Shown here: positions 224-31,002 of the stretch, piece after piece
Layout: each line of letters opens with the position of its first letter
How positions within the stretch are numbered: position 1 is the first letter of the stretch
Assembly: GCA_032718475.1 (NCBI GenBank)
Contig: JAUCBJ010007737.1
Coordinates: 1 to 39,605 of the forward strand
Source: Nemertoderma westbladi
Taxonomy: Eukaryota > Animalia > Xenacoelomorpha
Length of the DNA stretch: 39,605 nucleotides
Reading direction: 5' to 3'
Translations under genes and position numbers: made by a program
The notes under the pieces: model-generated
The model's input: the letters and a program-made list of their open reading frames with translations, nothing else
The model's database searches: none
Told to the model about the DNA's origin: nothing

Positions 224-2935
224 GTGTGATTGGGTACGAATGTTCCTATAGTGATTGTGTACGAATGTTCCTATAGTGATTGGGTACATGTTCCGGTAGT
301 GATTGGGTACATGTTCCGGTAGTGATTGGGTACATGTTCCGAATATGTTTGTGTTATGCTCCTTAGTGATTGTGTACATGTTCTGGTAGTGATTGGGTAC
401 ATGTTCCGAAGGTGTTTGTGTTATGTTCCTATAGTGATTGTGTACATGTTCCGGTAGTGATTGGGTACATGTTCCGGTAGTGATTGGGTACATGTTCCTA
501 TAGTGATTGGGTACATGTTCCTATAGTGATTGTGTACATGTTCCGGTAGTGATTGGGTACATGTTCCTATAGTGATTGTGTACATGTTCCGGTAGTGATT
601 GGGTACATGTTCCTATAGTGATTGGGTACATGTTCCTATAGTGATTGTGTACATGTTCCGGTAGTGATTGGGTACATGTTCCTATAGTGATTGTGTACAT
701 GTTCCTAGTTCCTATAGTGATTGTGTACATGTTCCGAAGGTGTTTGTGTTATGTTCCTATAGTGATTGTGTACATGTTCCGGTAGTGATTGTGTACATGT
801 TCCTATAGTGATTGTGTACATGTTCCGGTAGTGATTGGGTACATGTTCCTATAGTGATTGGGTACATGTTCCGATAGTGATTGTGTACATGTTCCTATAG
901 TGATTGTGTACATGTTCCGGTAGTGATTGGGTACATGTTCCTATAGTGATTGGGTACATGTTCCTATAGTGATTGTGTACATGTTCCGGTAGTGATTGGG
1001 TACATGTTCCTATAGTGATTGTGTACATGTTCCGGTAGTGATTGGGTACATGTTCCGATAGTGATTGTGTACATGTTCCGATAGTGATTGTGTACATGTT
1101 CCTATAGTGATTGTGTACATGTTCCTATGGTGATTGGGTACGAATGTTCCTATAGTGATTGTGTACGAATGTTCCTATAGTGATTGTGTACATGTTCCGG
1201 TAGTGATTGGGTACATGTTCCTATAGTGATTGGGTACATGTTCCGGTAGTGATTGGGTACATGTTCCGATAGTGATTGTGTACATGTTCCGATAGTGATT
1301 GTGTACATGTTCCTATAGTGATTGTGTACATGTTCCTATGGTGATTGGGTACGAATGTTCCTATAGTGATTGTGTACATGTTCCGGTAGTGATTGGGTAC
1401 ATGTTCCGATAGTGATTGTGTACATGTTCCGATAGTGATTGTGTACATGTTCCTATAGTGATTGTGTACATGTTCCTATGGTGATTGGGTACGAATGTTC
1501 CTATAGTGATTGTGTACATGTTCCGGTAGTGATTGTGTACGAATGTTCCTATAGTGATTGTGTACATGTTCCGGTAGTGATTGGGTACATGTTCCTATAG
1601 TGATTGGGTACATGTTCCTATAGTGATTGGGTACATGTTCCTATAGTGATTGTGTACATGTTCCGGTAGTGATTGGGTACATGTTCCGATAGTGATTGTG
1701 TACATGTTCCGATAGTGATTGTGTACATGTTCCTATAGTGATTGTGTACATGTTCCTATGGTGATTGGGTACGAATGTTCCTATAGTGATTGTGTACATG
1801 TTCCGGTAGTGATTGTGTACGAATGTTCCTATAGTGATTGGGTACATGTTCCGGTAGTGATTGGGTACATGTTCCGAACGTGTTTGTGTTATGTTCCTAT
1901 AGTGATTGTGTACATGTTCCGGTAGTGATTGTGTACATGTTCCTATAGAGATTGTGTACATGTTCCGATAGTGATTGTGTACATGTTCCGATAGTGATTG
2001 TGTACGAATGTTCCTATAGTGATTGTGTACATGTTCCTAGTTCCTATAGTGATTGTGTACATGTTCCGAAGGTGTTTGTGTTATGTTCCTATAGTGATTG
2101 TGTACATGTTCCGGTAGTGATTGGGTACATGTTCCTATAGAGATTGTGTACATGTTCCGATAGTGATTGTGTACATGTTCCGATAGTGATTGTGTACGAA
2201 TGTTCCTATAGTGATTGTGTACATGTTCCTATAGTGATTGTGTACGAATGTTCCTATAGTGATTGGGTACATGTTCCGGTAGTGATTGGGTACATGTTCC
2301 GAAGGTGTTTGTGTTATGTTCCTATAGTGATTGTGTACATGTTCCGGTAGTGATTGTGTACATGTTCCGGTAGTGATTGGGTACATGTTCCGGTAGTGAT
2401 TGGGTACATGTTCCGAAGGTGTTTGTGTTATGTTCCTATAGTGATTGTGTACATGTTCCGGTAGTGATTGTGTACATGTTCCGGTAGTGATTGGGTACAT
2501 GTTCCGATAGTGATTGTGTACATGTTCCGATAGTGATTGTGTACATGTTCCTATAGTGATTGTGTACATGTTCCTATGGTGATTGTGTACATGTTCCCGA
2601 AGGTGTTTGTGTTATGTTCCTATAGTGATTGTGTACATGTTCCTATAGAGATTGTGTACATGTTCCGGTAGTGATTGGGTACATGTTCCTATAGAGATTG
2701 TGTACATGTACCGATAGTGATTGTGTACATGTTCCGATAGTGATTGTGTACGAATGTTCCTATAGTGATTGTGTACATGTTCCTATAGTGATTGTGTACA
2801 TGTTCCGATAGTGATTGTGTACGAATGTTCCTATAGTGATTGTGTACATGTTCCGATAGTGATTGTGTACATGTTCCGGTAGTGATTGTGTACATGTTCC
2901 GATAGTGATTGTGTACATGTTCCGATAGTGATTTT
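224..2935. repeat. 23-bp minisatellite array (~115 copies), consensus CTATAGTGATTGTGTACATGTTC
   Basis: Direct tandem repetition with interspersed variants (CTA/CGG/CGA at unit start, TGT/GGT, AC/ACGA) and an occasional CGAAGGTGTTTGTGTTATGTTC unit. The overlapping short ORFs are translations of the repeat. Confidence 0.97.
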
Positions 2936-3374
2936 GTGTTATGGTGCCTATTACGTACCCCTACCTATTCTATTCGTAATGTTCTTTAATATTTTTATGC
3001 CTCTTACAATATTAATTTTATATAATCGTGCTTTACAGATACAATAGGAAGACTACATTTTATTGCCTACATAATTATTATATTATATACTATAGTCGCG
3101 GTGCTGTTATATTATACAAATTACCTACCGTTATATTATAAACGATTATTAGTGAGTGTTGATCAAATATAAAGATGTCGTTTTTGTAATTACATTCATT
3201 TTGAAAACCGAATTAAAATATCTTCAAAATTTTCCTCCTGAAACTTGCCTGTTGCTTGTAATCTCAGACCTTTTTGGTGTTTAATCCTAGTCTACTTGTG
3301 TGATAGAAATTATTCCGATGTCGATATGTTAACTTATTCACAGATCACTTCAAGGGTGTTTTTATAAAATTATA

Positions 3375-3955
3375 CAAGATCACGTTGGTGTTAAAAAACA
3401 CTTGGGCATTAGAACTTAATTTTGGGTAATAGAACTTACCCCAGATACCACTACTTGGTATTATTATAACATAATCCCAGACCGCTTGGTGTTATTTGAG
3501 AACTTAACCCCAGACACAACATGGTATTATTAGAACTTAAGAGACCATTTGGGTAATATAACTCAACCCTAGACACCACTTGGTGTTATTAGAACCTCCC
3601 CAGACACCACTTGGTATTATTATAACATAATCCCAGACCGCTTGATGTTATTTGAGAACTTAACCCCAGACACAACATGGTATTATTAGAACTTAGAGAC
3701 CATTTGGGTAATATAACTCAACCCTAGACACCACTTGGTGTTATTAGAACTTAACCAAACCACTTTGTGGTAGAACTTAATCCCAGACTATTTGAGTAAT
3801 AGAACTTATCCCAGACTATTTGGGTAATAGAACTTATCCCAGACCACTTGGTATTATTAGAACTTAAACCCAGACCACTTGGTGGTAGAACTTAATTCCA
3901 ACAAATATAACTTATCCCATATTTCTATAGTTTATAGTTTACAAATTTATTCCAG
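3375..3955. repeat. Degenerate ~30-bp tandem repeat (AGAACTTAATCCCAGACCACTTGGT core) including a ~155-bp block duplication
   Basis: Core motif recurs many times; ~3440-3595 is nearly identical to ~3598-3750. Confidence 0.85.
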
Positions 3956-4227: not shown

Positions 4228-6838
4228 CCCTTTGAGGACCGCAAGGGTACCAGAAGTGCCACATTTGATTCAAGTGAATATTTGGGGTCAAGACCCATAT
4301 AAAAACATAAAAACAAAAGGACTTTGAAAAATTTCAATGCCTTCATAGAAATCTGAGCCGGGATCCTGGAGTCCCTATGGTCCTTAAGGTGAACCTGGGC
4401 ATTTTTCAATAAAATCAACGAAAAGGTAGAAATTGTTGGAAATTATGATGAACTGGTCAGTCCAAAATAGTTGGCAGTAATTTGTACACAAAAACGTGCC
4501 AAGAAGAAGGTCCAAGGTTTTAGGAATTCCTGGAAATTCTGAAAAACAGCAGAAATTTCTGAAAAAAAATTAAAAAAAATTAACGATTGCGAAAATAGCT
4601 AAAATTATTATTAACTGGAAAGTGGAAATGCAAGCTAGAGTAGGGCCATTATATTATATATCAAAGTAACAACTATTTTTAGTTAAACTAAATTTAGCAC
4701 AGGTAGGCCGATAAACAATATAGGCTACTGAAAAAATTACAAAATAATGAAATTATGAAAATTATTTATAACTGGAAATTCCCACTAAGAACTATTATAT
4801 ACAGGTACCGCCGGGTACCAATGTAACAATTATTGCACATTATAATAGTAGAATCAATCTAGGCCCTATATAGTATAGATCTATATAGAAACCTATATAA
4901 TCAAATTAGGCCTATACAACAGTTAAAGTTTAGACTAATTATGGTACTCTTCGAAGCAATTGCGAGCATTGATTCCGGGATTAACGTGTTTGGGGGCTCC
5001 ACGTAATACAGCAAAACTGTCAGGCTGTTAGCCTAATATATAAGTAACACACGTCATACTGTAAACCAATTGAGGGAAAGGAGCAAGTTACAGAGGCAGG
5101 CTTTTCTAACCAAAACAATAAACGGCCACTTTTTGACTTTACCACAGTCTGACAGTACCGTTACAGTACGTGGAGGCCCTGCAACACGTTAGTCCTGCGA
5201 TTCCAGATATAGAGATACACTGCAAAAATGTACTTGACAGGCTTTACATCTAATATTATCGATCTTCTGCTTAGCACACTGGGCACATCTGCCTCGCCCA
5301 TCATCTAGCTGAGGCATGTGGGCATTCAGAGCATAAGAAACAATTGGTGGAAGAATCTTCTTGCGGTAATTGGTGGGAGCTTCCCTAGTACGGCTGCAGA
5401 AGTTTCCAATAGACACTGTTCGAGATTAAGTTTATAATCTAGCAGTCGGGACTTTTCACTGGTTAGTTGTTCCTGGACTCGGAAGGAATTAACAACACTG
5501 ACATCCAATAGATCAAATATTAATCGTAAATAAAACCGGAACCTGGACTTTCGATACAACTCGTAGCTGGCCTTCATCTGATCACAGAGTTCTACCCCAC
5601 TCACGACTTGGTTGTAGACTTGGACTGATTTTGGACAATAAGGACAGCTTATCAGAAGTCCCAGCTTGGTGCTTGGCGCCTCTTTACAACTACAGTTTCT
5701 CTAGGGTTGATGAAATTATCCACCATATAAACAGAACGATTATCAACCCACTTGGTGGCGACGAGTGATCCTAAGCAACGCCAATCAATATCTCCTCTCT
5801 TAATTTCCTTTATCATCTTTGAGCATATCAACAGGAAATTGTATACGGTTTACTCGACAAGTACCCACTTGATTACAAGTTAATTTCAGTTAATTTTTGG
5901 ACAAGATTAGGACTAGTGAATAATTTATCAGAGCCAGAGGCAATGTAATGTAATGAATACCAGTAGTATAGCCTAGGCTGCTAACCTATGTCCTGTATGA
6001 ATAGAATATCTGAACATAGGCCTATATAACATTAAGTTACTAATAGTTGGGCCAAATTATTACCTACAGCCTGCCCGGCCCTACTTAGCAGCCCTGGTTA
6101 GGCTGTTTAGCTACTAACACTGTAACAAGTAGCTAATTCCAGAATTCAGTAGGCCTAATTGAATTCCGTCCGCAATAGGCCTGACTGCCAGACAGCTGAT
6201 ACAGTGACCGGTAAAGATGATTGAGAAAACGAACCACCTTAAATGAACGGGTAGGCTAGATTTGTAGACAATGAATGTATCTGTAAGGGCCATTAAACGC
6301 AGCCAATCATCGCCGATACCTTGAAAACACTGTCCAGTGTTCAGACAGGCATGTGCATTGAACAACAAGATGATGCAACCAAGCACATCCTGACTTTGGA
6401 GAACAAGGTACTGATGGCGACAGAAGTCCTGTTATTTCAGCTCATTTGATTAAAAAGTTACTTACGGACAGCGGGACTCCCAGATCCCGCAAACGGAAAC
6501 AGCTGGCATTTTTTCCCTGTAATATGTATAAAAATTTTGTTTGTTGTTTTGAATAAAGGGAAGGTGTGTCTATTTAATTTCAGTAATTACTGCACGTAAT
6601 GACTTTTTGTATCAGAACTACAGTTCTCCAAACATTGTCAAAGTAAAAAAAATATTATTCAAATTTGAGATTATACAAAAACTTAACAAATAATAAAATT
6701 TGTGAAATTTCGCTGGGATGAGTTGCTCTCATCTATAATTAGTCCACTAAAACAAATATTTCGTCCGATGTGCGAAAATCAACTTCAGGAGCTTAGCTTT
6801 TGTGTTTGGGACTCCGGAGTCCCGCAGTCCTCAAAGGG
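4228..6838 (-). mobile_element. piggyBac-family DNA transposon, internally deleted/degenerate
   Basis: TTAA target duplications at 4224-4227 and 6839-6842; terminal inverted repeats CCCTTTGAGGAC(C/T)GC; transposase remnants inside. Confidence 0.93.
5189..5935 (-). pseudogene. piggyBac (PGBD-type) transposase C-terminal remnant
   Basis: Frameshifted motifs in the expected order: SDKLFTSP (DNxFTS), VGTCRVNR, TKWVDNRSVY, SGVELCDQMKASY..RKSR..LIFDLLDVSVVNS, then a Cys-rich tail RGRCAQC..CKACQVHFC. No N-terminal half recognised. Confidence 0.88.
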
Positions 6839-8560: not shown

Positions 8561-8870
8561 ATGTTCAAACACCCCGACATTCTGAAATGCCTCAATGTCG
8601 ATTTGATTGCAATATCAAAAAATATAAATAATATTTGCGTAACAAACAACCTAATCAGCCAATCTCATGCGAAAGATTCCTTTATTGAAATTGAATGTTA
8701 TGAAAAATTCATTATTAAATAAACATACAATGAACACATTAAGGTCAAAATGAATCTACCGATACAATATTTATGTACAATAAATCGATTAATATGTTCG
8801 ATCAATAAACAATATTTATCGAACAGTTACAGCGACAGTAATTGCACTGGTTGGTTGGTGTATAAGCCAG

Positions 8871-9375
8871 CTAGTTACTGAGGTTGGCCATTATGTTAGC
8901 CGTAGCGATCTCTTTATCGCTGAAGGAACCGCTGGGTAGGTTGAGCGAACTGTCCGATGGTTGGTCCTCTAACGCATCATCGATAACGTTTACAGGAGTG
9001 GTTACTATCGTCTCTTCCAAAGATTCTTCCTTATTGTTAACCTCTCTGGCTTCTAGTCCGTCCTCTAGTCTATCTGTAACGCCGTTGTACCCACCAACGC
9101 CGACATTAACCTCAGCAGGGTCTCCTGTGTGCGGATGTTCCACAATCCCGTCAACATCCACGGTCTCGGATTGCGCCTCCGGTTTTACCAGCGGCGCCGC
9201 CGACACTGACGGTGGTTGGCGACGTTCGTTGCTATGTGGTTTCTGTTCCTCCGAGAGTCTACGGGGCCGTTTCGTAGGAATGGAAGGCGCTACTGAAACT
9301 CCTTTGGAAGAACTTCGACTCTCAGCCAGAGTTATATCGAATTCTTTACGCTTCAATGCGTTCTTAATCTGAGCC
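8871..9375 (-). CDS. BAP18: BAP18/C17orf49-like protein, exon 3 (last coding exon)
   Basis: Acceptor TTTCAG at 9381-9376. The phase-2 join gives ..RTV|AQIKNALKRKEFD, matching the BAP18 RTVAQIK..KRK motif. Continues in ORF 8871..9356 to TAG; includes an ETVDVDG motif. Confidence 0.88.
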
Positions 9376-9474
9376 CTGAAAATAAATTAAATCTATACAA
9401 CAAGCTGATAAGCCTTGGTGGTTCACGTTCTCTGTCATTGAGTGATCCTGTGTACAAAAATAGTCCTTTATCGC

Positions 9475-9547
9475 AAACGGGGGTCGAACCTGCAACATTG
9501 GCATTACGGTTATGAGTATGGCCGCTCTTCGGAATAAGCTATTGAGC
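9475..9547 (-). other. tRNA-derived (Met-like) SINE head or tRNA pseudogene in BAP18 intron 2
   Basis: Minus strand GCTCAATAGCTTA..AGAGCGGC..CTCATAA..GCAGGTTCGACCCCC shows A-box/B-box-like motifs and a CTCATAA loop; stems are degenerate. Confidence 0.4.
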
Positions 9548-9742
9548 GTGAGAATCATTAGTGCAGAAAGTTTCATCTAATTCCATCACGTATGATGGCT
9601 GAGAGATCGCAATATACATACATAATAATAGATCAGAAACAGGAGTTACTTTGTCAAAGTCCGTTAACAAACAGGTTGTCTAATACCGTGAACCAACACT
9701 TTGTCAAAGACATTGAACCATCACTTTGATAATGACCATCAA

Positions 9743-12700
9743 GCTATACTCTAACACTGTCCAAGTAAGTGTCGGATATACTAACACTGTCCAAGTAAGT
9801 GTCGGATATACTAACACTGTCCAAGTAAGTGTCGGCTATACTAACACTGTCCAAGTAAGTGTCGGCTACTCTAACACTGTCCAAGTAAGTGTCGGCTATA
9901 CTAACACTGTCCAAGTAAGTGTCGGCTATACTAACACTGTCCAAGTAAGTGTCTGCTATACTAACACTGTCCAAGTAAGTGTCGGCTATACTAACATTGT
10001 CCAAGTAAGTGTCGGCTATACTAACACTGTCCAAGTAAGTGTCGGCTATACTAACACTGTCCAAGTAAGTGTCGGCTATACTAACACTGTCCAAGTAAGT
10101 GTCGGCTATACTAACACTGTCCAAGTAAGTGTCGGCTATACTAACACTGTCCGAGTAAGTGTCGGCTATACTAACATTGTCCAAGTAAGTGTCGGCTATA
10201 CTAACACTGTCCAAGTAAGTGTCGGCTATACTAACACTGTCCAAGTAAGTGTCGGCTATACTAACACTGTCCAAGTAAGTGTCGGCTATACTAACATTGT
10301 CCAAGTAAGTGTCGGCTATACTAACACTGTCCAAGTAAGTGTCGGCTATACTAACACTGTCCAAGTAAGTGTCGGCTATACTAACACTGTCCAAATAAGT
10401 GTCGGCTATACTAACACTGTCCAAGTAAGTGTCGGCTATACTAACACTGTCCAAGTAAGTGTCGGCTATACTAACATTGTCCAAGTAAGTGTCGGCTATA
10501 CTAACACTGTCCAAGTAAGTGTCGGCTACTCTAACACTGTCCAAAGTGTCGGCTATACTAACACTGTCCAAGTAAGTGTCGGCTACTCTAACACTGTCCA
10601 AGTAAGTGTCGGCTATACTAACACTGTCCAAGTAAGTGTCGGCTATACTAACACTGTCCAAGTAAGTGTCGGCTATACTAACACTGTCCAAGTAAGTGTC
10701 GGCTATACTAACACTGTCCAAGTAAGTGTCGGCTATACTAACATTGTCCAAGTAAGTGTCGGCTATACTAACACTCTCCAAGTAAGTGTCGGCTACTCTA
10801 ACATTGTCCAAGTAAGTGTCGGCTACCCTACATTGTCCAAGTAAGTGTCGGCTATACTAACACTGTCCAAGTAAGTATCGGCTATATTAACACTGTCCAA
10901 GTAAGTGTCGGCTATACTAACACTGTCCAAGTAAGTGTCGGCTATACTAACACTGTCCAAGTAAGTGTCGGCTATACTAACACTGTCCAAGTAAGTGTCG
11001 GCTATACTAACACTGTCCAAGTAAGTGTCTGCTATACTAACACTGTCCAAATAAGTGTCGGCTATACTAACACTGTCCAAGTAAGTGTCGGCTATACTAA
11101 CACTGTCCAAGTAAGTGTCGGCTATACTAACACTGTCCAAGTAAGTGTCTGCTATACTAACACTGTCCAAGTAAGTGTCGGATATACTAACACTGTCCAA
11201 GTAAGTGTCGGATATACTAACACTGTCCAAGTAAGTGTCGGCTATACTAACACTGTCCAAGTAAGTGTCGGCTATACTAACACTGTCCAAGTAAGTGTCG
11301 GCAATACTAACACTGTCCAAGTAAGTGTCGGCTATACTAACACTGTCCAAGTAAGTGTCGGCTACTCTAACATTGTCCAAGTAAGTGTCGGCTATACTAA
11401 CACTGTCCAAGTAAGTGTCGGCTATACTAACACTGTCCAAGTAAGTGTCGGATATACTAACACTGTCCAAGTAAGTGTCGGCTATACTAACACTGTCCGA
11501 GTAAGTGTCGGCTATATTAACACTGTCCAAGTAAGTGTCGGCTATACTAACACTGTCCAAGTAAGTGTCGGCTATACTAACACTGTCCGAGTAAGTGTCG
11601 GCTATATTAACACTGTCCAAGTAAGTGTCGGATATACTAACACTGTCCAAGTAAGTGTCGGCTATACTAACACTGTCCGAGTAAGTGTCGGCTATATTAA
11701 CACTGTCCAAGTAAGTGTCGGCTATACTAACACTGTCCAAGTAAGTGTCGGCTATACTAACACTGTCCAAGTAAGTGTCGGCTATACTAACACTGTCCAA
11801 GTAAGTGTCGGCTATACTAACACTGTCCAAGTAAGTGTCGGCTATACTAACACTGTCCAAGTAAGTGTCGGCTATACTAACACTGTCCAAGTAAGTGTCG
11901 GCTATACTAACACTGTCCAAGTAAGTGTCGGCTATACTAACACTGTCCAAGTAAGTGTCGGCTATACTAACACTGTCCAAGTAAGTGTCGGCTATACTAA
12001 CACTGTCCAAGTAAGTGTCGGCTATACTAACACTGTCCAAGTAAGTGTCGGATATACTAACACTGTCCAAGTAAGTGTCGGCTATACTAACACTGTCCGA
12101 GTAAGTGTCGGCTATATTAACACTGTCCAAGTAAGTGTCGGCTATACTAACACTGTCCAAGTAAGTGTCGGCTATACTAACACTGTCCGAGTAAGTGTCG
12201 GCTATATTAACACTGTCCAAGTAAGTGTCGGATATACTAACACTGTCCAAGTAAGTGTCGGCTATACTAACACTGTCCGAGTAAGTGTCGGCTATATTAA
12301 CACTGTCCAAGTAAGTGTCGGCTATACTAACACTGTCCAAGTAAGTGTCGGCTATACTAACACTGTCCAAGTAAGTGTCGGCTATACTAACACTGTCCAA
12401 GTAAGTGTCGGCTATACTAACACTGTCCAAGTAAGTGTCGGCTATACTAACACTGTCCAAGTAAGTGTCGGCTATACTAACACTGTCCAAGTAAGTGTCG
12501 GCTATACTAACACTGTCCAAGTAAGTGTCGGCTATACTAACACTGTCCAAGTAAGTGTCGGCTATACTAACACTGTCCAAGTAAGTGTCGGATATACTAA
12601 CACTGTCCAAGTAAGTGTCGGCTATACTAACACTGTCCAAGTAAGTGTCGGCTATACTAACACTGTCCAAGTAAGTATCGGCTATACTAACACTAACACT

Positions 12701-14244
12701 GTCCAAGTAAGTGTCGGCTATACTAACACTGTCCAAGTAAGTGTCGGCTATACTAACATTGTCCAAGTAAGTGTCGGCTATACTAACACTGTCCAAGTAA
12801 GTGTCGGCTATACTAACACTGTCCAAGTAAGTGTCGGATATACTAACACTGTCCAAGTAAGTGTCGGCTATACTAACACTGTCCGAGTAAGTGTCGGCTA
12901 TACTAACACTGTCCGAGTAAGTGTCGGCTATATTAACACTGTCCAAGTAAGTGTCGGCTATACTAACACTGTCCAAGTAAGTGTCGGCTATACTAACACT
13001 GTCCAAGTAAGTGTCGGCTATACTAACACTGTCCAAGTAAGTGTCGGCTATACTAACACTGTCCAAGTAATTGTCGGCTATACTAACACTGTCCAAGTAA
13101 GTGTCGGCTATACTAACACTGTCCAAGTAAGTGTCGGCTATACTAACACTGTCCAAGTAAGTGTCGGCTATACTAACACTGTCCAAGTAAGTGTCGGCTA
13201 TACTAACACTGTCCAAGTAAGTGTCGGCTATACTAACACTGTCCAAGTAAGTGTCGGCTATACTAACACTGTCCAAGTAAGTGTCGGATATACTAACACT
13301 GTCCAAGTAAGTGTCGGCTATACTAACACTGTCCGAGTAAGTGTCGGCTATATTAACACTGTCCAAGTAAGTGTCGGCTATACTAACACTGTCCAAGTAA
13401 GTGTCGGCTATACTAACACTGTCCGAGTAAGTGTCGGCTATATTAACACTGTCCAAGTAAGTGTCGGATATACTAACACTGTCCAAGTAAGTGTCGGCTA
13501 TACTAACACTGTCCAAGTAAGTGTCGGATATACTAACACTGTCCAAGTAAGTGTCGGCTATACTAACACTGTCCAAGTAAGTGTCGGCTATACTAACACT
13601 GTCCAAGTAAGTATCGGCTATACTAACACTAACACTGTCCAAGTAAGTGTCGGCTATACTAACACTGTCCAAGTAAGTGTCGGCTATACTAACATTGTCC
13701 AAGTAAGTGTCGGCTATACTAACACTGTCCGAGTAAGTGTCGGCTATATTAACACTGTCCAAGTAAGTGTCGGCTATACTAACACTGTCCAAGTAAGTGT
13801 CGGCTATACTAACACTGTCCGAGTAAGTGTCGGCTATACTAACACTGTCCAAGTAAGTGTCGGATATACTAACACTGTCCAAGTAAGTGTCGGATATACT
13901 AACACTGTCCAAGTAAGTGTCGGCTATACTAACACTGTCCAAGTAAGTGTCGGATATACTAACACTGTCCAAGTAAGTGTCGGCTATACTAACACTGTCC
14001 AAGTAAGTGTCGGCTATACTAACACTGTCCGAGTAAGTGTCGGCTATATTAACACTGTCCAAGTAAGTGTCGGATATACTAACACTGTCCAAGTAAGTGT
14101 CGGCTATACTAACACTGTCCAAGTAAGTGTCGGATATACTAACACTGTCCAAGTAAGTGTCGGCTATACTAACACTGTCCAAGTAAGTGTCGGCTATACT
14201 AACACTGTCCGAGTAAGTGTCGGCTATACTAACACTGTCCGAGT
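9743..14244. repeat. 30-bp minisatellite (~150 copies) filling BAP18 intron 2; unit = last 11 nt of exon 2 + first 19 nt of intron 2
   Basis: Plus-strand unit AACACTGTCCAAGTAAGTGTCGGCTATACT; sense unit ACT(T/C)GGACAGT|GTTAGTATAGCCGACACTT. The array ends inside exon 2 at 14244. Confidence 0.98.
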
Positions 14245-14436
14245 TTTTATCGTTTCGGATATCCTGTTTATATCGTCACCGAATCTTTTCACAGCTGTTC
14301 GCAGCTGTTCCGTTTCCCCCGTTGTCCATTTCTTACTGATTGTCTGCTGGTTGGAATCACTCAACGGATGAAGTTGCATCGTCAACTCGCCCAGTTTAGC
14401 GAACGCCTCCCCGGCTGCTGTAAAGATCTCCGCGAC
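14234..14436 (-). CDS. BAP18: BAP18/C17orf49-like protein, exon 2 (SANT/Myb-like domain)
   Basis: Translates to VAEIFTAAGEAFAKLGELTMQLHPLSDSNQQTISKKWTTGETEQLRTAVKRFGDDINRISETIKTRT(V), closely matching the recalled human BAP18 N-terminus (KVGEIFSAAGAAFTKLGELTMQLHP..KWT..LR.AVKRFGDD). AG acceptor at 14438-14437, GTTAGT donor at 14233-14228. Missed by the ORF track. Confidence 0.95.
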
Positions 14437-14746: not shown

Positions 14747-14788
14747 CTTCGCCGATGGACTGGATGAAGTTGTTGCTTCGTTACTCAT
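14747..14788 (-). CDS. BAP18: BAP18/C17orf49-like protein, exon 1 (MSNEATTSSSPSAK); spliced CDS 750 nt, 249 aa
   Basis: ATG at 14788 (an alternative in-frame ATG at 14794), strong AAG|GTAAGC donor; the phase-0 join gives SAK|VAEIF, equivalent to human STK-VGEIF. Confidence 0.85.
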
Positions 14789-19712: not shown

Positions 19713-20211
19713 CAATACCGATTTGCTAAGCTGTGAATACCAAAAATTATAATAATATGAAATCAGTCATTCACTCAAAATACTAATAATAACTATAAGC
19801 AAAGCATACCATTATGTCACTAAGCACTAACTATAGCCCATCCACTCAAACGTAAAAATAGTTCTTAATAACAAATGAATCACCCCCCCACCCGTCCTAC
19901 AATGAAATTATGTCGTTATAACAATACAGTATATCACAATCGAAGTGGTGGTATATACTGTACTTAATGGAAGTGGTGGTGTACAGTTCAGTATTATTTC
20001 ATGTGCAGAATGGCCTTATACTGTAAACAGACCAGTGCAGTGTCGCAGATGGTTGCGCTTCACAGCTCCAACAAATTCTATATAGCCACTAAATCTAATA
20101 ATAACAATACGAAATTATAGTGGTGATATTATTATTTAATTACAGTAATAATAATGCTGATATATTGTTATTTAATTTATTATTTATTGTGCATGAGATC
20201 TACTTGTTAAC

Positions 20212-21853
20212 ATGAGAGCCATTCGATTGTTTAAATTGCTATTGGTTCCATTTATCATCGTTTATGTAATATTTATTTTGATTATAATAATTAATGTGGC
20301 AACCAATGTTAGAGTGAGAGACGAAATTAAGTTGTTCAAATATTCATCTCGTGAGCGAATTAATGATGTTTTTCCTGCAGACAATAGCAAATCAGGATCT
20401 TATTCCTCGAAAAATATTCAATCAGATCATGAAAAAACAATAAAAAATATCAGCAAATTAAATCTAAACTTTAAGAAATATACCAAAGGTAACTTACATG
20501 AGAATTTAGCCTCAGAATCTAGAACAAGTAAGGCTGGGCTTGTTCTATTCTCTCCGATGGTTAGTGAATTTGTGGTAGCCGGCCCCGGGGAGATGGGAGC
20601 TGCGGTCACACTAAACTCTAGCGAATCACACCTCAGTAAATCCCGATGGAAAGAGAACCAGTTTAACATCGTAGCCAATGAGAAGATGCGGTTAGTCCGA
20701 ACGTTGGGCGACTACCGGGACCCGTTGTGTCGAGGCCGGTCCTATCCGGCGGATCTGCCGACCGCGTCGTTGGTAATTGGTTTCTATAACGAGGGTTTAT
20801 TCCCGTTGCTTCGCACGGCGCAGAGTTGCTGGATGCGAGCCCCGATCGAGATGCTGCGCGAGGTGATCCTAGTGGACGACGGGAGTGAACGTAGCGAACT
20901 CAAAGATAAACTCAATCGATTTGCAGCCATTCTATTCCCCGGAAAAGTAAAAGTAATACATCTCGCAGAGCGGGTTGGACTTATGGGCGCGCGGACCGTG
21001 GGAGCCGATGCGTCATCGAGTGACGTCATCGTATTCCTAGACTCACACTGCGAGTGCGACCACGGTTGGTTGGAACCGCTTCTAGAACGTATTTATTATA
21101 ATTATAAGACCATAGCGGTGCCTATTATCGATGTTATTGACGACGATAGTATGGCTTACAATCCGAAGGGTATTAAGCTTTATTACGGAGAATTCACATG
21201 GACTCTAATGTTCACGTGGAAAGGTATTCCTTCGCGGATTAGCGCTGCTAGGAAGTCGCCAATAGAGCCGATAGAGACACCGACAATGCCCGGAGGTCTG
21301 TTCGCGATCCATCGGAAGTGGTGGACCGAGATTGGTAAGTACGATCCGGGTTTGAGGTTCTGGGGGGCGGAGAATCTCGAGATGAGCTTTAAGACGTGGT
21401 TGTGCGGTGGGGCTTTGGAGTTCGTACCGTGTTCTAGAATAGGTCACATATTCAGGAGGAAGTCCCCTTATACTGGCGGAGGTCAGTACAATAACGCTAG
21501 AAGGGTGGCCGAGACCTGGTTGGATGAATATAAGACATTGTATTACGAAGCTATTAACTTAACCCCGTCCAAAAACGTGTCAATAGATGTAGCCGATCGG
21601 TTGATTATTAAAGGGAATCTCGGTTGCAGACCTTTTAGTTGGTATATAAATAAATTCTTTGGTCATTGGAAGATTTCTCGTTTATCAATAGCTTACAAGG
21701 ATTTACAAACAGCCTCCGGCATGTGTGTTGCTAAGGATAACAGACTGCTTATAATATCCGAGTGTAGCCAATCGAATCCCTCCATTAGTTTGACCACGGA
21801 CGGTTGGTTGAAGATAGACTCCTCAATGTGCTTAAAGGGTGACATCAAGAGAG
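20212..21853 (+). CDS. Polypeptide N-acetylgalactosaminyltransferase (GALNT/ppGalNAc-T, GT27), exon 1
   Basis: Type II membrane anchor, stem, GPGEMG, ENQFN, EVILVDD, FLDSHCE (DxH), TPTMPGGLFAI, WGAENLEMS, CSRIGHIFR, start of the ricin-type lectin domain; donor G|GTGAGT at 21854. Paralogue not assignable by eye. Confidence 0.96.
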
Positions 21854-22083
21854 GTGAGTGTGTATTGATTATTTATATTTTCGGCAGTTAGTTCTACTAA
21901 GTAACAGTATAAAGGTTCATATTCTATAATTATTTTTCATGATTTTTCACCGCTTTTAAATAAAGTAAAAAATAAGATTAAGATTTATTATGCATGGGTT
22001 TATTATAATTTTTTAATCGAATATACTTCCTTATTATGTTCACTTATTTTAATTGATGACAATCCGGTATAACTTTACTCTAG

Positions 22084-22274
22084 GTTACAACGTTGTCCCT
22101 TCACGATGTGATGCAGACCCTTACCAACAATGGAACTACAACGCAACTACCGGCTTTTTAGTCAATACAAAGACCGAATTATGTCTGGGGGTGTCGGGAT
22201 TGCTGTCCACGTTAAGTTTGGACAGATGTACTAAATACTCAGACAAATGGAAATTTATGGTCAACTACATATAG
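22084..22274 (+). CDS. GALNT exon 2 (rest of ricin-type beta-trefoil lectin domain); spliced protein 610 aa
   Basis: Acceptor TTTACTCTAG at 22074-22083; the phase-1 join is in frame: GYNVVPSRCDADPYQQWNY..LCL..LDRC..KWKF (CD..QxW repeats). Confidence 0.9.
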
Positions 22275-22381
22275 TTTTGTAACTTAAACTAATCTAAACC
22301 AACAGGCGACATTTCTATGGCATCATATCTGGCTCAAAATTCAATATTTGATTTGGGGTTGCAATATTTAAAAAAATTTCA

Positions 22382-23052
22382 AAATATTGACACAGTTCAG
22401 TTTAAATATTGACACAGTACAGTATAATATTGACACAGTACAATATATAATATTGACACAGTACAATATAATATTGACACAGTACAATATAATATTGACA
22501 CAGTACAGTTTAAATATTGACACAGTACAGTTTAAATATTGACACAGTTCAGTTTAAATATTGACACAGTACAATATAATATTGACACAGTACAATATAA
22601 TATTGACACAGTACAGTTTAAATATTGACACAGTACAATATAATATTGACACAGTACAATATAATATTGACACAGTACAGTTTAAATATTGACACAGTAC
22701 AATATATAATATTGACACAGTACAATATAATATTGACACAGTACAATATAATATTGACACAGTACAGTTGAAATATTGACACAGTACAGTTTAAATATTG
22801 ACACAGTACAGTTTAAATATTGACACAGTACAGTATAAATATTGACACAGTACAGTATAATATTGACACAGTACAATATATAATATTGACACAGTACAAT
22901 ATAATATTGACACAGTACAATATAATATTGACACAGTACAGTTTAAATATTGACACAGTACAGTTTAAATATTGACACAGTTCAGTTTAAATATTGACAC
23001 AGTACAGTTTAAATATTGACACAGTACAGTTTTAATATTGACACAGTACAAT
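22382..23052. repeat. 21-23-bp tandem repeat in the left arm of the foldback element
   Basis: TAAATATTGACACAGTACAGTT / TAATATTGACACAGTACAATA units; inverted copies at ~23457-23585. Confidence 0.95.
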
Positions 23053-23118
23053 ATGAAATGACAATTCAAATTTCCCTCTCCATACATAGGCCTACATACT
23101 ATGTGATTGGAGTTAATC

Positions 23119-23322: not shown

Positions 23323-23657
23323 GCCGTACTAAGGCATACTACAGTGGAGTACAGTGATTTAGTTACAGCAATACTGCTGTACAAGTACAATTCCACTTTA
23401 TATCCAATCAAATGGGATGTGTGTGGGTAGAGGGAATTTGAATTGTCATTTCATATTGTACTGCGTCAATATTATACTGTACTGTGTCAATATAATACTG
23501 TACTGTGTCAATATTATATTGTACTGTGTCAATATTATATTGTGCCGTGCTGTGTCAATATTTAAACTGAACTGTGTCAATATTTTGCAGTATTTTTAAA
23601 TATTGCAACCCCACTTCAAATATTGAATTTTGAGCCAGATATGATGCCATACATTTC

Positions 23658-24297
23658 GGGCTACGAAATGTAACAAATGAGCCCAACCACATAGTCAGGG
23701 AGCAGCAGGTGGTCGATGGCGGATGTTGGTCTCCCGTGCCGGTGCGACTTGGGGGTTCGGGGGGTCCTTCTTCAGGTAGACTCAGGCGTTGTTCGACATG
23801 AAGGTGATAAACCTGCCGGGTTCTATGCCAACCGCTCCCCGAAGCAAATTCTGTAGTCGGCGGAGAACGACAAGAAACTGCCATACGGGCCGTTACAGCA
23901 CGGTGGGCTGACTTTTCCCCGTTCATCGCGTCATGCGATGGTGTGCTTGCCCCACAGGCCAACAAACTGCTCCGTGTGATCGCGTCCACATAGTGTTGTA
24001 ATGGGTTGGGTGAGGCCGGGTCAGCTCCAACTATTGCGTGACGCATCCCATTGCGTTCGTGGGTCGCGGACCAAATAGGGGAGCGGTTTAGGTTTGGATG
24101 ACGGCGCTGCTGGGCTGCCATAAACCGTAACTAACGGACATACCATCTTGTGCTTTATTATTCCACCTAATAAATTAATTGATTTAAATATTAATGTCTT
24201 AAAATTTATTTTAGTTTCAAGTCTCTTATTTTAATTAATAGCGTTTGTATTATTAAATTGATGTTGCATCTAAACCAATAATAATAATAATAATAAT
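23658..24297 (+). mobile_element. 3' fragment of a CRE-like non-LTR retrotransposon (restriction-like endonuclease region, 3' UTR, (AAT)n tail)
   Basis: Frameshifted motifs VTNEP, RCDLGVRG, QALFDMKVIN, FSPFIASCDGVLAPQANKLLRVIA, VMGWVR, CVRGSRTK*..GLDDGAAGLP*, then an AT-rich UTR ending in (AAT)7. Confidence 0.75.
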
Positions 24298-24366
24298 ATA
24301 CTAACTTAAATCCTTTTCGTATTAATTCTAGATGAATTGCAAAACATTGCTAATATATTGTGGCTT

Positions 24367-27300
24367 GTTAGTTAGTTATACTGTAGTTGTTCACTTCACA
24401 GAATGAGTCCCGCCAACTCGGATGTTAGTTAGTTATACTGTAGCACAGAATGAGTCCCGCCAACTCGAATGTTAGTTAGTTATACTGTAGTTGTTCACTT
24501 CACAGAATGAGTCCCGCCAACTCGGATGTTAGTTAGTTATACTATAGTTGTTCACTTCACAGAATGAGTCCCGCCAACTCGGATGTTAGTTAGTTATACT
24601 GTAATTGTTCACTTCACAGAATGAGTCCCGCCAACTCGGATGTTAGTTAGTTATACTGTAGTTGTTCACTTCACAGAATGAGTCCCGCCAACTCGGATGT
24701 TAGTTGGTTATACTGTAGTTGTTCACTTCACAGAATGAGAAACGCCAACTCGGATGTTAGTTAGTTATACTATAGTTGTTCACTTCACAGAATGAGTCCC
24801 GCCAACTCGGATGTTAGTTAGTTATACTGTAGTTGTTCACTTCACAGAATGAGTCCCGCCAACTCGGATGTTAGCTAGTTATACTGCAGTTGTTCACTTC
24901 ACAGAATGAGTCCCGCCAACTCGGATGTTAGTTAGTTATACTGTAGTTGTTCACTTCACAGAATGAGTCCCGCCAACTCGGATGTTAGTTAGTTATACTG
25001 TAGTTGTTCACTTCACAGAATGAGTCCCGCCAACTCGGATGTTAGTTAGTTATACTGTAGTTGTTCACTTCACAGAATGAGTCCCGCCAACTCGGATGTT
25101 AGTTAGTTATACTGTAGTTGTTCACTTCACAGAATGAGTCCCGCCAACTCGGATGTTAGTTAGTTATACTGTAGTTGTTCACTTCACAGAATGAGTCCCG
25201 CCACCTCGGATGTTAGTTAGTTATACTGTAGTTGTTCACTTCACAGAATGAGTCCCGCCAACTCGGATGTTAGTTAGTTATACTGTAATTGTTCACTTCA
25301 CAGAATGAGAAACGCCAACTCGGATGTTAGTTAGTTATACTATAGTTGTTCACTTCACAGAATGAGTCCCGCCAACTCGGATGTTAGTTAGTTATACTGT
25401 AGTTGTTCACTTCACATAATGAGTCCCGCCAACTCGGATGTTAGTTAGTTATACTGTAATTGTTCACTTCACAGAATGAGTCCCGCCAACTCGGATGTTA
25501 GTTAGTTTATACTGTAGTTGTTCACTTCACAGAATGAGTCCCGCCAACTCGGATGTTAGTTAGTTATACTGTAGTTGTTCACTTCACATAATGAGTCCCG
25601 CCAACTCGGATGTTAGTTAGTTATACTGTAGCACAGAATGAGTCCCGCCAACTCGGATGTTAGTTAGTTATACTGTAGTTGTTCACTTCACAGAATGAGT
25701 CCCGCCAACTCGGATGTTAGTTAGTTATACTGTAGTTGTTCACTTCACAGAATGAGTCCCGCCAACTCGGATGTTAGTTAGTTAGTTATACTGTAGTTGT
25801 TCACTTCACAGAATGAGTCCCGCCAACTCGGATGTTAGTTCGTTATACTATAGTTGTTCACTTCACAGAATGAGTCCCGCCAACTCGGATGTTAGTTAGT
25901 TATACAGTAATTGTTCACTTCACAGAATGAGAAACGCCAACTCGGATGTTAGTTAGTTATACTGTAGTTGTTCACTTCACAGAATGAGTCCCGCCAACTC
26001 GGATGTTAGTTAGTTATACTGTAGTTGTTCACTTCACAGAATGAGTCCCGCCAACTCGGATGTTAGCTAGTTATACTGTAGTTGTTCACTTTACAGAATG
26101 AGTCCCGCCAACTCGGATGTTAGTTAGTTATACTGTAGTTGTTCACTTTACAGAATGAGTCCCGCCAACTCGGATGTTAGTTAGTTATACTGTAGTTGTT
26201 CACTTCACAGAATGAGTCCCGCCAACTCTGATGTTAGTTAGTTATACTGTAGTTGTTCACTTCACAGAATGAGTCCCGCCAACTCGGATGTTAGTTAGTT
26301 AAAATACTGTAGTTGTTTACTTCACAGAATGAGTCCCGCCAACTCGGATGTTGGCTAGTTATACTGTAGTTGTTCACTTCACAGAATGAGTCCCGCCAAC
26401 TCTGATGTTATAGTTAGTTATACTGTAGTTGTTCACTTCACAGAATGAGTCCCGCCACCTCGGATGTTAGTTAGTTATACTGTAGTTGTTCACTTTACAG
26501 AATGAGTCCCGCCAACTCGGATGTTAGTTAGTTATACTGTAGTTGTTCACTTCACAGAATGAGTCCCGCCAACTCGGATGTTAGTTAGTTATACTATAGT
26601 TGTTCACTTCACAGAATGAGTCCCGCCACCTCGGATGTTAGTTAGTTATACTGTAGTTGTTCACTTTACAGAATGAGTCCCGCCAACTCGGATGTTAGTT
26701 AGTTATACTGTAGTTGTTCACTTCACAGAATGAGTCCCGCCAACTCGGATGTTAGTTAGTTATACTATAGTTGTTCACTTCACAGAATGAGTCCCGCCAA
26801 CTCGAATGTTAGTTAGTTATACTGTAGTTGTTCACTTCACAGAATGAGTCCCGCCAACTCATACACACTAGGATTGTGGCTTGTTAGTTAGTTATACTGT
26901 AATTGTTCACTTCACAGAATGAGTCCCGCCAACTCGGATGTTAGTTAGTTATACTGTAGTTGTTCACTTCACAGAATGAGTCCCGCCAACTCGGATGTTA
27001 GTTAGTTATACTGTAGTTGTTCACTTCACAGAATGAGTCCCGCCAACTCGGATGTTAGCTAGTTATACTGCAGTTGTTCACTTCACAGAATGAGTCCCGC
27101 CAACTCGGATGTTAGTTAGTTATACTGTAGTTGTTCACTTCACAGAATGAGTCCCGCCAACTCGGATGTTAGCTAGTTATACTGTAGTTGTTCACTTCAC
27201 AGAATGAGTCCCGCCAACTCGGATGTTAGTTAGTTATACTGTAGTTGTTCACTTCACAGAATGAGTCCCGCCAACTCGGATGTTAGTTAGTTATACTGTA

Positions 27301-27773
27301 GTTGTTCACTTCACAGAATGAGAACCGCCAACTCGGATGTTAGTTAGTTATACTGTAGTTGTTCACTTCACATAATGAGTCCCGCCAACTCGGATGTTAG
27401 TTAGTTATACTGTAGTTGTTCACTTCACAGAATGAGTCCCGCCAACTCGGATGTTAGTTAGTTATACTGTAGCACAGAATGAGTCCCGCCAACTCGGATG
27501 TTAGTTAGTTATACTGTAGCACAGAATGAGTCCCGCCAACTCGGATGTTAGTTAGTTATACTGTAGTTGTTCACTTCACAGAATGAATCCCGCCAACTCG
27601 GATGTTAGCTAGTTATACTGTAGTTGTTCACTTCACAGAATGAGTCCCGCCAACTCGGATGTTAGTTAGTTATACTGTAGTTGTTCACTTCACAGAATGA
27701 GTCCCGCAAACTCGGATGTTAGTTAGTTATACTGTAGTTGTTCACTTCACAGAATGAGTCCCGCCGACTCGGA
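24367..27773. repeat. 57-bp minisatellite (~60 copies)
   Basis: Unit GTTAGTTAGTTATACTGTAGTTGTTCACTTCACAGAATGAGTCCCGCCAACTCGGAT; recurrent 47-bp deletion variant lacking TTGTTCACTT. Confidence 0.98.
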
Positions 27774-27975
27774 CACACTAGGACAGCCAAGGATGCAGTT
27801 AAGGCTGCATCTAGATCCCTTAACAGGCAGTACTCAGATAATATGAAGGAGCTTATCAATATACAGTTTTATGCCATCAACAATGCCGATGATAGCAGGC
27901 AATCAGACCAATAATCGATGCAATCGATAAACCTGCTAACTGGGAGGAAAAGCTATGAGGAACAGCTAAGAGTTG
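27752..27975 (+). mobile_element. Possible RTE-like LINE fragment (linker region between endonuclease and RT)
   Basis: Reads AKDAVKAASRSLNRQYSDNMKELINIQFYAINNADDSRQSDQ*SMQSINLLTGRKS, resembling the recalled L..Y..I..I.NA..QS..W..IN..TGRK segment of invertebrate RTE-type ORFs; short and degenerate. Confidence 0.45.
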
Positions 27976-28954
27976 AGAGAGGGAGAGACTGCATCTGTTC
28001 CGTCGGGTTGGGTCATACCAATAATGTGAGAGGGCGATTAGAGAGGGAGAGACTGCATCTGTTCCGCCGGGTCATACCAATAATGTGAGAGGGCGATTAG
28101 AGAGGGAGAGACTGCATCTGTTCCGTCGGGTCATACCAATAATGTGAGTTGGAGAGACTGCATCTGTTCCGTCGGGTCTTACCAATAATGTGAGAGGGCG
28201 ATTAGAGAGGGAGAGACTGCATCTGTTCCGTCGGGTCATACCAATAATGTGAGAGGGAGAGACTGCATCTGTTCCGTCGGGTCATACCAATAATGTGAGA
28301 GGGCGATTAGAGAGGGAGAGACTGCATCTGTTCCGTCGGGTCATACCAATAATGTGAGAGGGCGATTAGAGAGGGAGAGACTGCATCTGTTCCGTCGTGT
28401 CATACCAATAATGTGAGAGGGAGAGACTGCATCTGTTCCGTCGGGTCATACCAATAATGTGAGAGGGCGATTAGAGAGGGAGAAACTGCATCTGTTCCGT
28501 CGGGTCATACCAATAATGTGAGAGGGAGAGACTGCATCTGTTCCGTCGGGTCATACCAATAATGTGAGAGGGCGATTAGAGAGGGAGAGACTGCATCTGT
28601 TCCGTCGGGTCATACCAATAATGTGAGAGGGAGAGACTGCATCTGTTCCGTCGGGTCATACCAATAATGTGAGAGGGCGATTAGAGAGGGAGAAACTGCA
28701 TCTGTTCCGTCGGGTCATACCAATAATGTGAGAGGGAGAGACTGCATCTGTTCCGTCGGGTCATACCAATAATGTGAGAGGGCGATTAGAGAGGGAGAGA
28801 CTGCATCTGTTCCGTCGGGTCATACCAATAATGTGAGAGGGCGATTAGAGAGGGAGAGACTGCATCTGTTCCGTCGGGTCATACCAATAATGTGAGAGGG
28901 AGAGACTGCATCTGTTCCGTCGGGTCATACCAATAATGTGAGAGGGCGATTAGA
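27975..28954. repeat. 46/59-bp dimorphic minisatellite (~18 copies)
   Basis: Core GAGAGGGAGAGACTGCATCTGTTCCGTCGGGTCATACCAATAATGT with or without a 13-bp GAGAGGGCGATTA module. Confidence 0.97.
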
Positions 28955-29895: not shown

Positions 29896-31002
29896 GGAGG
29901 GTTGGGGCCAGAAAGTAGGGACTGTCTGGAGGGTTGGGGACCGAAAGTAGGGACTGTCTGGAGGGTTGGGGACCGAAAGTAGGGACTGCCTGGAGGGTTG
30001 GAGCCCGAAAGTAGGGACTGCCTGGAGGGTTGGGTACCGAAAGTAGGGACTGCCTGGAGGGTTGTGGCACGAAAGTAGGGACTGTCTGGAGGGTTGGGGC
30101 CCGAGAGTAGGGACTGTCTGGAGGGTTGGGGCCCGAAAGTAGGGACTGTCTGGAGTGGTGGGGCCCGAAAGTAGGGACTGTCTGGAGGGTTGGGGTCAGA
30201 AAGTAGGGACTGTCTAGAGGGTTGGGGCCCGAAAGTAGGGACTGTCTGGAGGGTTGGGGTCCGAGAGTAGGGACTGTCTGGAGGGTTGGGGCCCGAAAGT
30301 AGGGACTCTCTGGAGGGTTGGGCCCCGAAAGTAGGGACTGTCTGGAGGGTTGGGGCCCGAAAGTAGGGACTGTCTGGAGGGTTGGGGCCCGATAGTAGGG
30401 ACTGTCTGGAGGGTTGGGGCCCGAAAGTAGGGACTGTCTGGAGGGTTGGGGCCCGAAAGTAGGGACTGTCTGGAGGGTTGGGGCCCGAAAGTAGGGACTG
30501 CCTGGAGGGTTGGGGCCCGAAAGTAGGGACTGTCTGGAGGGTTGGGGCCCAAAAGTAGGGACTGTCTGGAGGGTTGGGGCCCTAAAGTAGGGACTGCCTG
30601 GAGGGTTGGGGCCCGAAAGTAGGGACTGTCTGGAGGGTTGGGGCCCGAGAGTAGGGACTGTCTGGAGGGTTGGAGCCCGAAAGTAGGGACTGTCTGGAGG
30701 GTTGGGGCCAGAAAGTAGGGACTGCCTGGAGGGTTGGGGCCCGAGAGTAGGGACTGTCTGGAGGGTTGGGGCCCGAAAGTAGGGACTGCCTGGAGGGTTG
30801 GGGCCCGAAAGTAGGGACTGTCTGGAGGGTTGGGGCCCGAAAGTAGGGACTGCCTGGAGGGTTGGGGCCCGAAAGTAGGGACTGTCTGGAGGGTTGGGGC
30901 CCGAAAGTAGGGACTGCCTGGAGGGTTGGGGCCCGAAAGTAGGGACTGTCTGGAGGGTTGGGGCCCGAAAGTAGGGACTGTCTGGAGGGTTGGGGCCCGA
31001 AA
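29896..31002. repeat. 32-bp G-rich minisatellite (~34 copies)
   Basis: Unit GGAGGGTTGGGGCCCGAAAGTAGGGACTGTCT. Confidence 0.98.

What the first reader, a model, noticed from the sequence alone, without database searches (positions are those of the whole stretch)
9743..14244. An intron built from ~150 tandem copies of its own 5' splice site (BAP18 intron 2)
Seen: exon 2 ends ..AAAACTCGGACAGT|GTTAGTATAGCCGACACTT, and the 30-bp unit is exactly the last 11 exonic plus first 19 intronic bases. About 4.5 of the 4.86 kb intron are copies of the exon/intron junction, most with an identical -6..+6 context. In the BAP18 frame, read-through gives GTG TTA GTA TAG, so use of any donor but the first yields a protein truncated at ~84 aa within the SANT domain. 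From the third donor on, the stop is >55 nt upstream of the junction, the usual NMD rule. Established: duplicated donors normally compete and the intron-proximal (downstream) one is often preferred. Inference: the organism either selects the first of ~150 equivalent donors (exon definition, co-transcriptional commitment, or stepwise re-splicing back to donor 1), or array length tunes productive versus NMD-bound BAP18 mRNA. This could be a genome-wide splice-junction-amplification mode of intron growth.
Basis: partly seen in the sequence, partly recalled or inferred. Interest (0 to 1): 0.85.

Follow-up and report, generated by a model that had tools for sequence, protein, structure and literature searches.

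The report
Splice-donor minisatellite fills BAP18 intron
In an invertebrate animal's BAP18 chromatin gene, the end of exon 2 with its splice signal is repeated 150 times and fills 92% of the next intron, a large example of a repeat type already described in human, lancelet and chicken genes, and likely harmless because splicing is predicted to use the first copy.

Summary
Observation confirmed. BAP18 (minus strand, three exons, 249 aa) carries 150 tandem copies of a 30-bp unit that begins as the last 11 bases of exon 2 plus the first 19 of intron 2. They fill 4,491 of 4,858 intronic bases; 123 of 150 keep the same -6..+6 donor context. The donor is ancient: 30 of 36 assessable homologous loci have an intron at the same codon position, and none of the 30 has an array. 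Any later copy gives an 84-aa truncation. This is a known kind: human F7/CBS/IFI6 junction minisatellites, lancelet 'mirages', chicken 'exon stuttering'. In F7 minigenes the first donor wins regardless of copy number. Precise re-splicing back to donor 1 is excluded: the array has no AG|GT or AG|GC. No RNA run was listed, so first-donor use here is inferred, and the NMD-tuning idea is untested. The scan's earlier, unchecked notes describe the same thing in 20 other genes of this genome (up to about 2,100 copies) and in other genomes. This locus is an ordinary member; the open question is why junctions in this genome seed such arrays so often.

The parts
14747..14788 (-). BAP18 coding exon 1 (14 codons from the ATG at 14788; an in-frame ATG lies two codons upstream; 5' UTR not determined), phase-0 GT donor
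   Evidence: model from sequence and homology, no RNA
14234..14436 (-). BAP18 exon 2, 203 nt: conserved N-terminal segment and most of the SANT/Myb domain; ends two bases into a Val codon (phase 2)
   Evidence: 22 BAP18-like hits, best E 1e-17; PF00249 E 4e-4, below the curated cut-off
14228..14236 (-). Authentic intron-2 donor AGT|GTTAGT (donor 1); weak, 5 of 9 matches to the U1 consensus
   Evidence: same phase-2 position in 30 of 36 assessable homologous loci, two with the same +1..+6
14215..14244 (-). First 30-bp monomer: 11 exonic plus 19 intronic bases; carries an in-frame TAG ending 10 nt past each donor
9743..14244 (-). Minisatellite of 150 donor-bearing copies (149 full units in 18 variants plus a last partial one), with repeated blocks of variants (20 units at copies 56 and 76; 13 units at 26 and 67)
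9990..13696 (-). Seven scattered variant copies (AAT|GTTAGT; first intronic base at 13693, 12757, 10742, 10475, 10295, 10175, 9995) that match U1 slightly better than donor 1
9376..9742 (-). Non-array remainder of intron 2 (367 nt) with a T-rich tract and CAG acceptor
8871..9375 (-). BAP18 exon 3 coding part: rest of the last SANT helix, then a diverged acidic tail; stop ends at 8871
   Evidence: no real relative of the tail among 1.84 billion representatives

Best explanation
A 30-bp stretch straddling the old exon 2/intron 2 border of BAP18 is repeated 150 times into the intron; it likely grew by ordinary slippage and unequal exchange, and it is likely tolerated because the spliceosome is predicted to use the first, exon-adjacent donor and remove all later copies with the intron. 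Shown: the anatomy; the local origin of the unit (its exonic part encodes conserved BAP18 residues, and no other copy lies in the window); the age of the donor; the truncation that later donors would give. Inferred: growth by block duplication (from repeated runs of variants); first-donor choice by exon definition or 5'-to-3' first-come selection (from the F7 experiments, and because donor n would make exon 2 longer by 30 nt per copy: 203, 233, 263 up to 4,681 nt); and a small leak to donors 2-3 or to stronger variant copies that is degraded or harmless, as in IFI6 and CBS.
For: The donor position is conserved in 30 of 36 assessable homologous loci, and 0 of those 30 show a repeated junction, so the array is a lineage-specific addition to an old intron. 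The three exons join into an intact 249-aa frame only through donor 1. Variant blocks recur in order. 36% of the window (14,423 of 39,605 nt) is tandem array, and the other arrays touch none of the other five modelled junctions, so minisatellite growth is general here. F7 minigenes use only the most upstream donor, unaffected by 1-12 monomers or by downstream sites with consensus values up to 91 (PMC1557585). Lancelet mirages are reported not to disturb splicing. Predicted folding leaves donor 1 a little more open than later donors in co-transcriptional snapshots (0.30-0.37 against 0.15-0.19 unpaired from 20 nt past the donor).
Against: There is no RNA evidence from this locus, so first-donor use is borrowed from other genes and species. 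Donor 1 is weak, and 7 of 150 copies match U1 better. IFI6 and CBS use two downstream pseudo-sites as well (PMC1557585 introduction). An unchecked note on GALNS in this genome reports splicing from a variant copy at similar depth. The folding advantage of donor 1 over donor 2 disappears with wider folding windows, and donor 2 is the more open one 10 nt after it is made. The F7 work is in mammalian cells with at most 12 copies.
Confidence: 0.75

Rival explanations
1. The copies compete for real: a substantial share of transcripts use donors 2-3 or the seven stronger variant copies, and the resulting stop-containing mRNAs are degraded, so array content lowers or tunes BAP18 output.
For: Weak donor 1 and 7 better-matching copies; donors 2-5 all give the 84-aa stop; two pseudo-sites are used in IFI6 and CBS; an unchecked note on GALNS in this genome reports use of an internal variant copy.
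Against: In F7, monomer number did not change site choice and use fell with distance from the exon; the nearest stronger copy is number 19, 540 nt downstream; nothing like the array is conserved in 30 homologous loci, so no sign of a selected switch; the 50-55 nt rule may not apply, as introns are not needed to define premature stops in Drosophila or C. elegans (PMC4770240).
Confidence: 0.15
2. The intron is removed stepwise: a downstream donor is used first and the product is re-spliced back to donor 1.
For: Each unit holds three AG dinucleotides and several GT/GC dinucleotides.
Against: There is no AGGT or AGGC in the array; none of the 12 donor/AG combinations of the common unit removes a multiple of 30 nt; and after splicing a later donor to exon 3 the bases before exon 3 read AGT, not AG, so no acceptor is regenerated at the right place. 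The unit has no pyrimidine tract. The only in-frame rescue tested (a GT two bases upstream with an AG seven bases into exon 3) deletes three conserved residues and matches U1 at 2 of 9 positions.
Confidence: 0.03
3. The array, or most of its length, is an assembly artefact.
For: Near-identical tandem repeats are error-prone in assemblies; no raw reads could be examined.
Against: 18 unit variants recur in ordered blocks and change along the array, which random read error would not produce; both ends join unique sequence cleanly; similar arrays were verified by raw nanopore reads in chicken. The exact tandem 20-unit block (copies 56-95) could still be a false duplication.
Confidence: 0.04
4. This BAP18 copy is a dead or dying gene, so nothing constrains donor choice.
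For: The C-terminal tail is long and has no detectable relatives.
Against: Intact frame, canonical splice sites, 53-67% identity of exon 2 to homologues matched over its full length, and conserved residues continuing into exon 3; the tail is poorly conserved among homologues generally.
Confidence: 0.03

Closest known systems
Human F7 intron 7 37-bp VNTR, with IFI6 (6-16) intron 2, CBS intron 13, LMNB2 and PDGF intron 4 minisatellites (Borensztajn et al. 2006, PMC1557585; main text read, parts 1-5 of 6; the other four genes only as cited there)
   Same: The first monomer spans the exon/intron border; identical donors are reiterated downstream; similar unit size and a modest donor.
   Different: 150 copies against 5-9 (F7), 15-20 (CBS) and 25 (IFI6); 92% of the intron; an invertebrate; every later donor tested gives a stop, whereas two F7 pseudo-sites do not; donor choice not measured here.
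Lancelet 'mirage' minisatellites (Adh3, globins BflGb6/BflGb9, troponin C, PGBD5; PMC3087553 and PMC3902484, passages read)
   Same: Locally derived tandem copies of an exon-intron border in a marine invertebrate, 10-160 bp units, reported not to disturb splicing.
   Different: The copy numbers seen in those passages are 3-6; here 150 at 96% identity. Length polymorphism, shown there, was not testable here.
Chicken dot-chromosome 'exon stuttering' (Hron et al. 2026, PMC12954441; abstract, Results section 7, Discussion and passages read)
   Same: Genome-scale growth of introns by local repeats; over 90% of exon-derived repeats start within 1 base of the exon border and copy the splice site.
   Different: 1-44 copies (median 4), imperfect and GC-rich there; here near-perfect, about 43% GC, 150 copies. 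[quoted passage not shown]
Recursive splicing (ratchet AG|GT sites; recalled, no call)
   Different: The required AG|GT junction is absent from the array.

Membership tests
Junction-spanning minisatellite (F7 type / mirage / exon stuttering) | First monomer spans a genuine exon-intron boundary | tested here: met
   donor position conserved in 30 of 36 assessable homologous loci
Junction-spanning minisatellite (F7 type / mirage / exon stuttering) | Head-to-tail copies reiterate the splice signal inside the adjacent intron | tested here: met
   150 copies, 123 with identical -6..+6
Junction-spanning minisatellite (F7 type / mirage / exon stuttering) | Local origin: unit derived from this gene, not a dispersed family | tested here: met
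   Exonic part encodes conserved BAP18 residues; no copy elsewhere in the window; the rest of the genome was not available
Junction-spanning minisatellite (F7 type / mirage / exon stuttering) | Coding exon itself left intact | tested here: met
   249-aa open frame through donor 1
Junction-spanning minisatellite (F7 type / mirage / exon stuttering) | Mature mRNA uses the exon-adjacent site, wholly or mostly | not testable with these tools
   No RNA run was listed and no protein from this organism was found
Junction-spanning minisatellite (F7 type / mirage / exon stuttering) | Copy-number polymorphism between alleles | not testable with these tools
   One haplotype only; repeated variant blocks imply past length change
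Recursive-splicing ladder | AG|GT (or AG|GC) sites that regenerate a donor with no residue | tested here: not met
   0 AGGT and 0 AGGC in the array; no donor/AG pair of the common unit removes a multiple of 30 nt
BAP18 (C17orf49) family, host gene | Conserved N-terminal segment followed by a SANT/Myb domain | tested here: met
Regulated unproductive splicing (AS-NMD switch) | Conserved, used alternative site giving an NMD-sensitive isoform | tested here: inconclusive
   Stop geometry fits from donor 4; no conservation in 30 homologous loci; use and NMD sensitivity not measurable

The most novel reading that the evidence does not exclude
This animal has a junction-directed mutational process, for example a splicing- or transcription-coupled lesion at exon edges, that seeds tandem duplications on splice sites and grows introns by amplifying their own donors and acceptors. 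BAP18 intron 2 went from about 0.4 kb to 4.9 kb this way, and the genome's many giant arrays are a natural assay of how a spliceosome picks one site among hundreds of identical ones.
Probability: 0.25. Interest if true: 0.7.

Novelty: new member of a known kind. Interest (0 to 1): 0.3.

Why it matters
Alone, the locus adds a large invertebrate example to a described class. Its value is as a test case: a weak donor followed by 149 near-identical decoys, seven of them slightly stronger and all predicted to truncate the protein, would test whether first-come donor selection, shown for at most 12 copies in mammalian cells, holds at 150 copies in a distant animal. If junction arrays are truly enriched across this genome, it would make the origin of mirage/exon-stuttering repeats, which both describing papers call unclear or speculative, directly testable. 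It also warns annotators that such arrays can create false exons.

Tried and rejected
No genome is held for this window, so no genome-wide test. No RNA run was listed for 8780-9740; this is no evidence on expression, and no reads were laid. The repeat unit had 0 exact matches in metagenome contigs. No protein of this organism or a close relative turned up (best identity over the full exon 2 query 67%); the only hit for the exon 3 tail was an unrelated low-complexity repeat protein. Structural masking as a designed feature: tandem units fold no better than tandem shuffled units (z -1.1 to +0.3). Shared core with the 57-bp array at 24.4-27.8 kb: 6% of 2,000 shuffles score as well, not significant. 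An older decayed layer in the 25-bp repeat at 9648-9728: at least 12% of shuffles and 14% of control windows score as well in every setting. A coding role for the long open frames across the array (1,150 and 1,189 aa): 2 of 6 frames of a 30-bp unit are open, no more than chance, and the unit has no Met in them. Alternative donor two bases upstream: poor U1 match and loss of three conserved residues. Other arrays as junction copies of unseen genes: 91 of 103 stop-to-stop segments of 58 aa or more were scanned (7 more; 5 overlapping BAP18 left out), and one search found only the GALNT lectin exon. A multi-term search for invertebrate junction-minisatellite papers found none; passages of two acoel genome papers did not mention such arrays; passages of PMC10078293 were not informative.

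Full report
Observation. On the minus strand the window holds a three-exon gene: 14788-14747, 14436-14234 and 9375-8871, giving 249 aa. Exon 2 finds 22 BAP18-like proteins among 52 candidates (best E 1e-17; named hits include annelid, sea cucumber, cnidarian and platypus) and a weak Myb/SANT match. The alignments show the conserved last helix running across the exon 2/exon 3 join. [quoted passage not shown] TRF reports a 30-bp array at 9751-14244. I count 150 donor-bearing copies: 149 full units in 18 variants and a last partial one; 123 of 150 share the -6..+6 context of the first. The array takes 4,491 of 4,858 intronic bases. The first unit is the last 11 exonic and first 19 intronic bases, as stated, but only 16 of 150 copies keep the exon's exact 11-mer; 120 have C>T at -8.

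Is the donor real? A metagenome scan gave 62 BAP18 loci. A helix motif could be located in 36 of 62. In 30 of these 36 the frame breaks at the same phase-2 position with a GT donor, and 6 continue in frame as transcript-like or intronless records. The 30 represent 25 distinct junction sequences, two have the same GTTAGT, the next exon was found in 22 of 30 (introns 72-2,292 nt), and 0 of 30 show a repeated junction or a tandem repeat over the donor (several contigs end within 600 nt of the donor). So the intron is old, and the array is a later local addition whose exonic part comes from conserved coding sequence. No other copy of the unit lies in the window.

How it grew. Variants recur in ordered blocks: a 20-unit block at copies 56 and 76, 13 units at 26 and 67, 7 units at 3 and 23. 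This fits slippage and unequal exchange, and argues against read noise, though exact copy number is unverified. Tandem arrays cover 36% of the window. Of six modelled junctions (four in BAP18, two in a neighbouring GALNT gene) only this one is reiterated, and a rough placement estimate gives about 0.13 for one such overlap. One window therefore cannot show enrichment.

How it is likely spliced. Donor 1 is weak (5 of 9 consensus matches) and seven later copies match slightly better, the nearest being copy 19. Re-splicing back to donor 1 cannot be precise: the array has no AGGT or AGGC, none of 12 donor/AG pairs of the common unit removes a multiple of 30 nt, and a later donor joined to exon 3 regenerates no AG at the join. 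Folding gives no special stability (z -1.1 to +0.3). Donor 1 is somewhat more open than later donors in co-transcriptional snapshots, but not more than donor 2 with wide windows, so this is a weak hint at most. No RNA could be examined, so donor choice is inferred from precedent.

Precedent. PMC1557585 (main text read) describes the human F7 intron 7 VNTR, whose first 37-bp monomer spans the exon border. Only the most upstream donor is used; knocking it out shifts splicing to the next; 1 to 12 monomers make no difference; downstream sites compete only at a perfect consensus. Its introduction lists IFI6 (25 pseudo-sites) and CBS (15-20), each using two pseudo-sites as well, and LMNB2 and PDGF, using only the first. 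Lancelet 'mirages' are the same arrangement and are reported not to disturb splicing (passages of PMC3087553 and PMC3902484). Chicken 'exon stuttering' shows it at genome scale: 236 introns, 1-44 copies, over 90% starting at the exon border, mechanism speculative (PMC12954441). The supplements of these papers (gene lists, repeat alignments) were not opened and may hold larger copy numbers. Passages of an NMD review state that introns are not needed to define premature stops in Drosophila or C. elegans (PMC4770240), so the 50-55 nt rule may not apply to this animal.

Earlier scan notes. These are unchecked AI notes, used as leads only. Searches showed 20 distinct notes on junction arrays in other genes of this genome, with up to about 2,100 copies; most of those reporting RNA say the exon-adjacent site is used, and one (GALNS) reports a variant internal copy used at similar depth. 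One search showed the same kind in other genomes. The notes led me to the mirage and exon-stuttering papers, which I then read; I found the F7 paper before opening them. One note calls the organism a likely acoel; I did not establish this (the GALNT search gave diverse animal hits below 50% identity). No note concerns this locus.

Verdict. Most likely (0.75) it is a tolerated minisatellite with first-donor splicing; meaningful leak or tuning 0.15; re-splicing 0.03; artefact 0.04; dead gene 0.03. Interest 0.3. The bolder reading, a junction-directed mutational process across this genome, stays open at about 0.25 and needs the genome-wide test I could not run.

Noticed in passing
window 20197-22271 (+): Two-exon polypeptide GalNAc-transferase gene: a long first exon (glycosyl transferase 2, E 4e-25), a 230-nt intron at 21854-22083 and a short exon with part of the lectin domain. 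Its junctions carry no arrays.
   Followed up: partly
window 14234-14436 against L010-L062: Most homologous genomic loci match only residues 1-23/38 or 33-67 of exon 2 in one piece, suggesting an extra intron there that this gene lacks; likely intron loss in this lineage.
   Followed up: no
window 226-2937, 3449-3894, 22382-23059, 24366-27773, 27976-28954, 29896-31002: Six further unrelated minisatellites (units of about 23, 31, 22, 57, 46/59 and 32 bp); with the BAP18 array and small repeats they cover 36% of the window.
   Followed up: partly
window 24366-27773 (+): The 57-bp unit holds an acceptor-like CAG and a donor-like GTTAGT 22 nt apart, and shares a short word with the BAP18 unit; the likeness is not significant and no host exon was found. 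The flank at 27738-27975 looked by eye like a decayed LINE fragment (no Pfam hit).
   Followed up: partly
window 22320-22400 and 23430-23660: The flank and unit of the 22-bp array appear to recur in inverted orientation about 1 kb downstream (seen by eye).
   Followed up: no
window 5329-5700 (-) and 33300-35300 (+): Decayed transposons: a DDE_Tnp_1_7 (piggyBac-like) fragment, and a gag/protease/RT-like LTR-retrotransposon remnant (weak protease hit, E 0.06).
   Followed up: partly
window 9717-14371, both strands: One frame on each strand stays open through the array (up to 1,189 aa), shifted at a single 29-bp unit near 10830; expected by chance for a 30-bp unit.
   Followed up: yes
window 37390-37717 (-): Two overlapping basic, proline-rich open frames with no Pfam match.
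   Followed up: no
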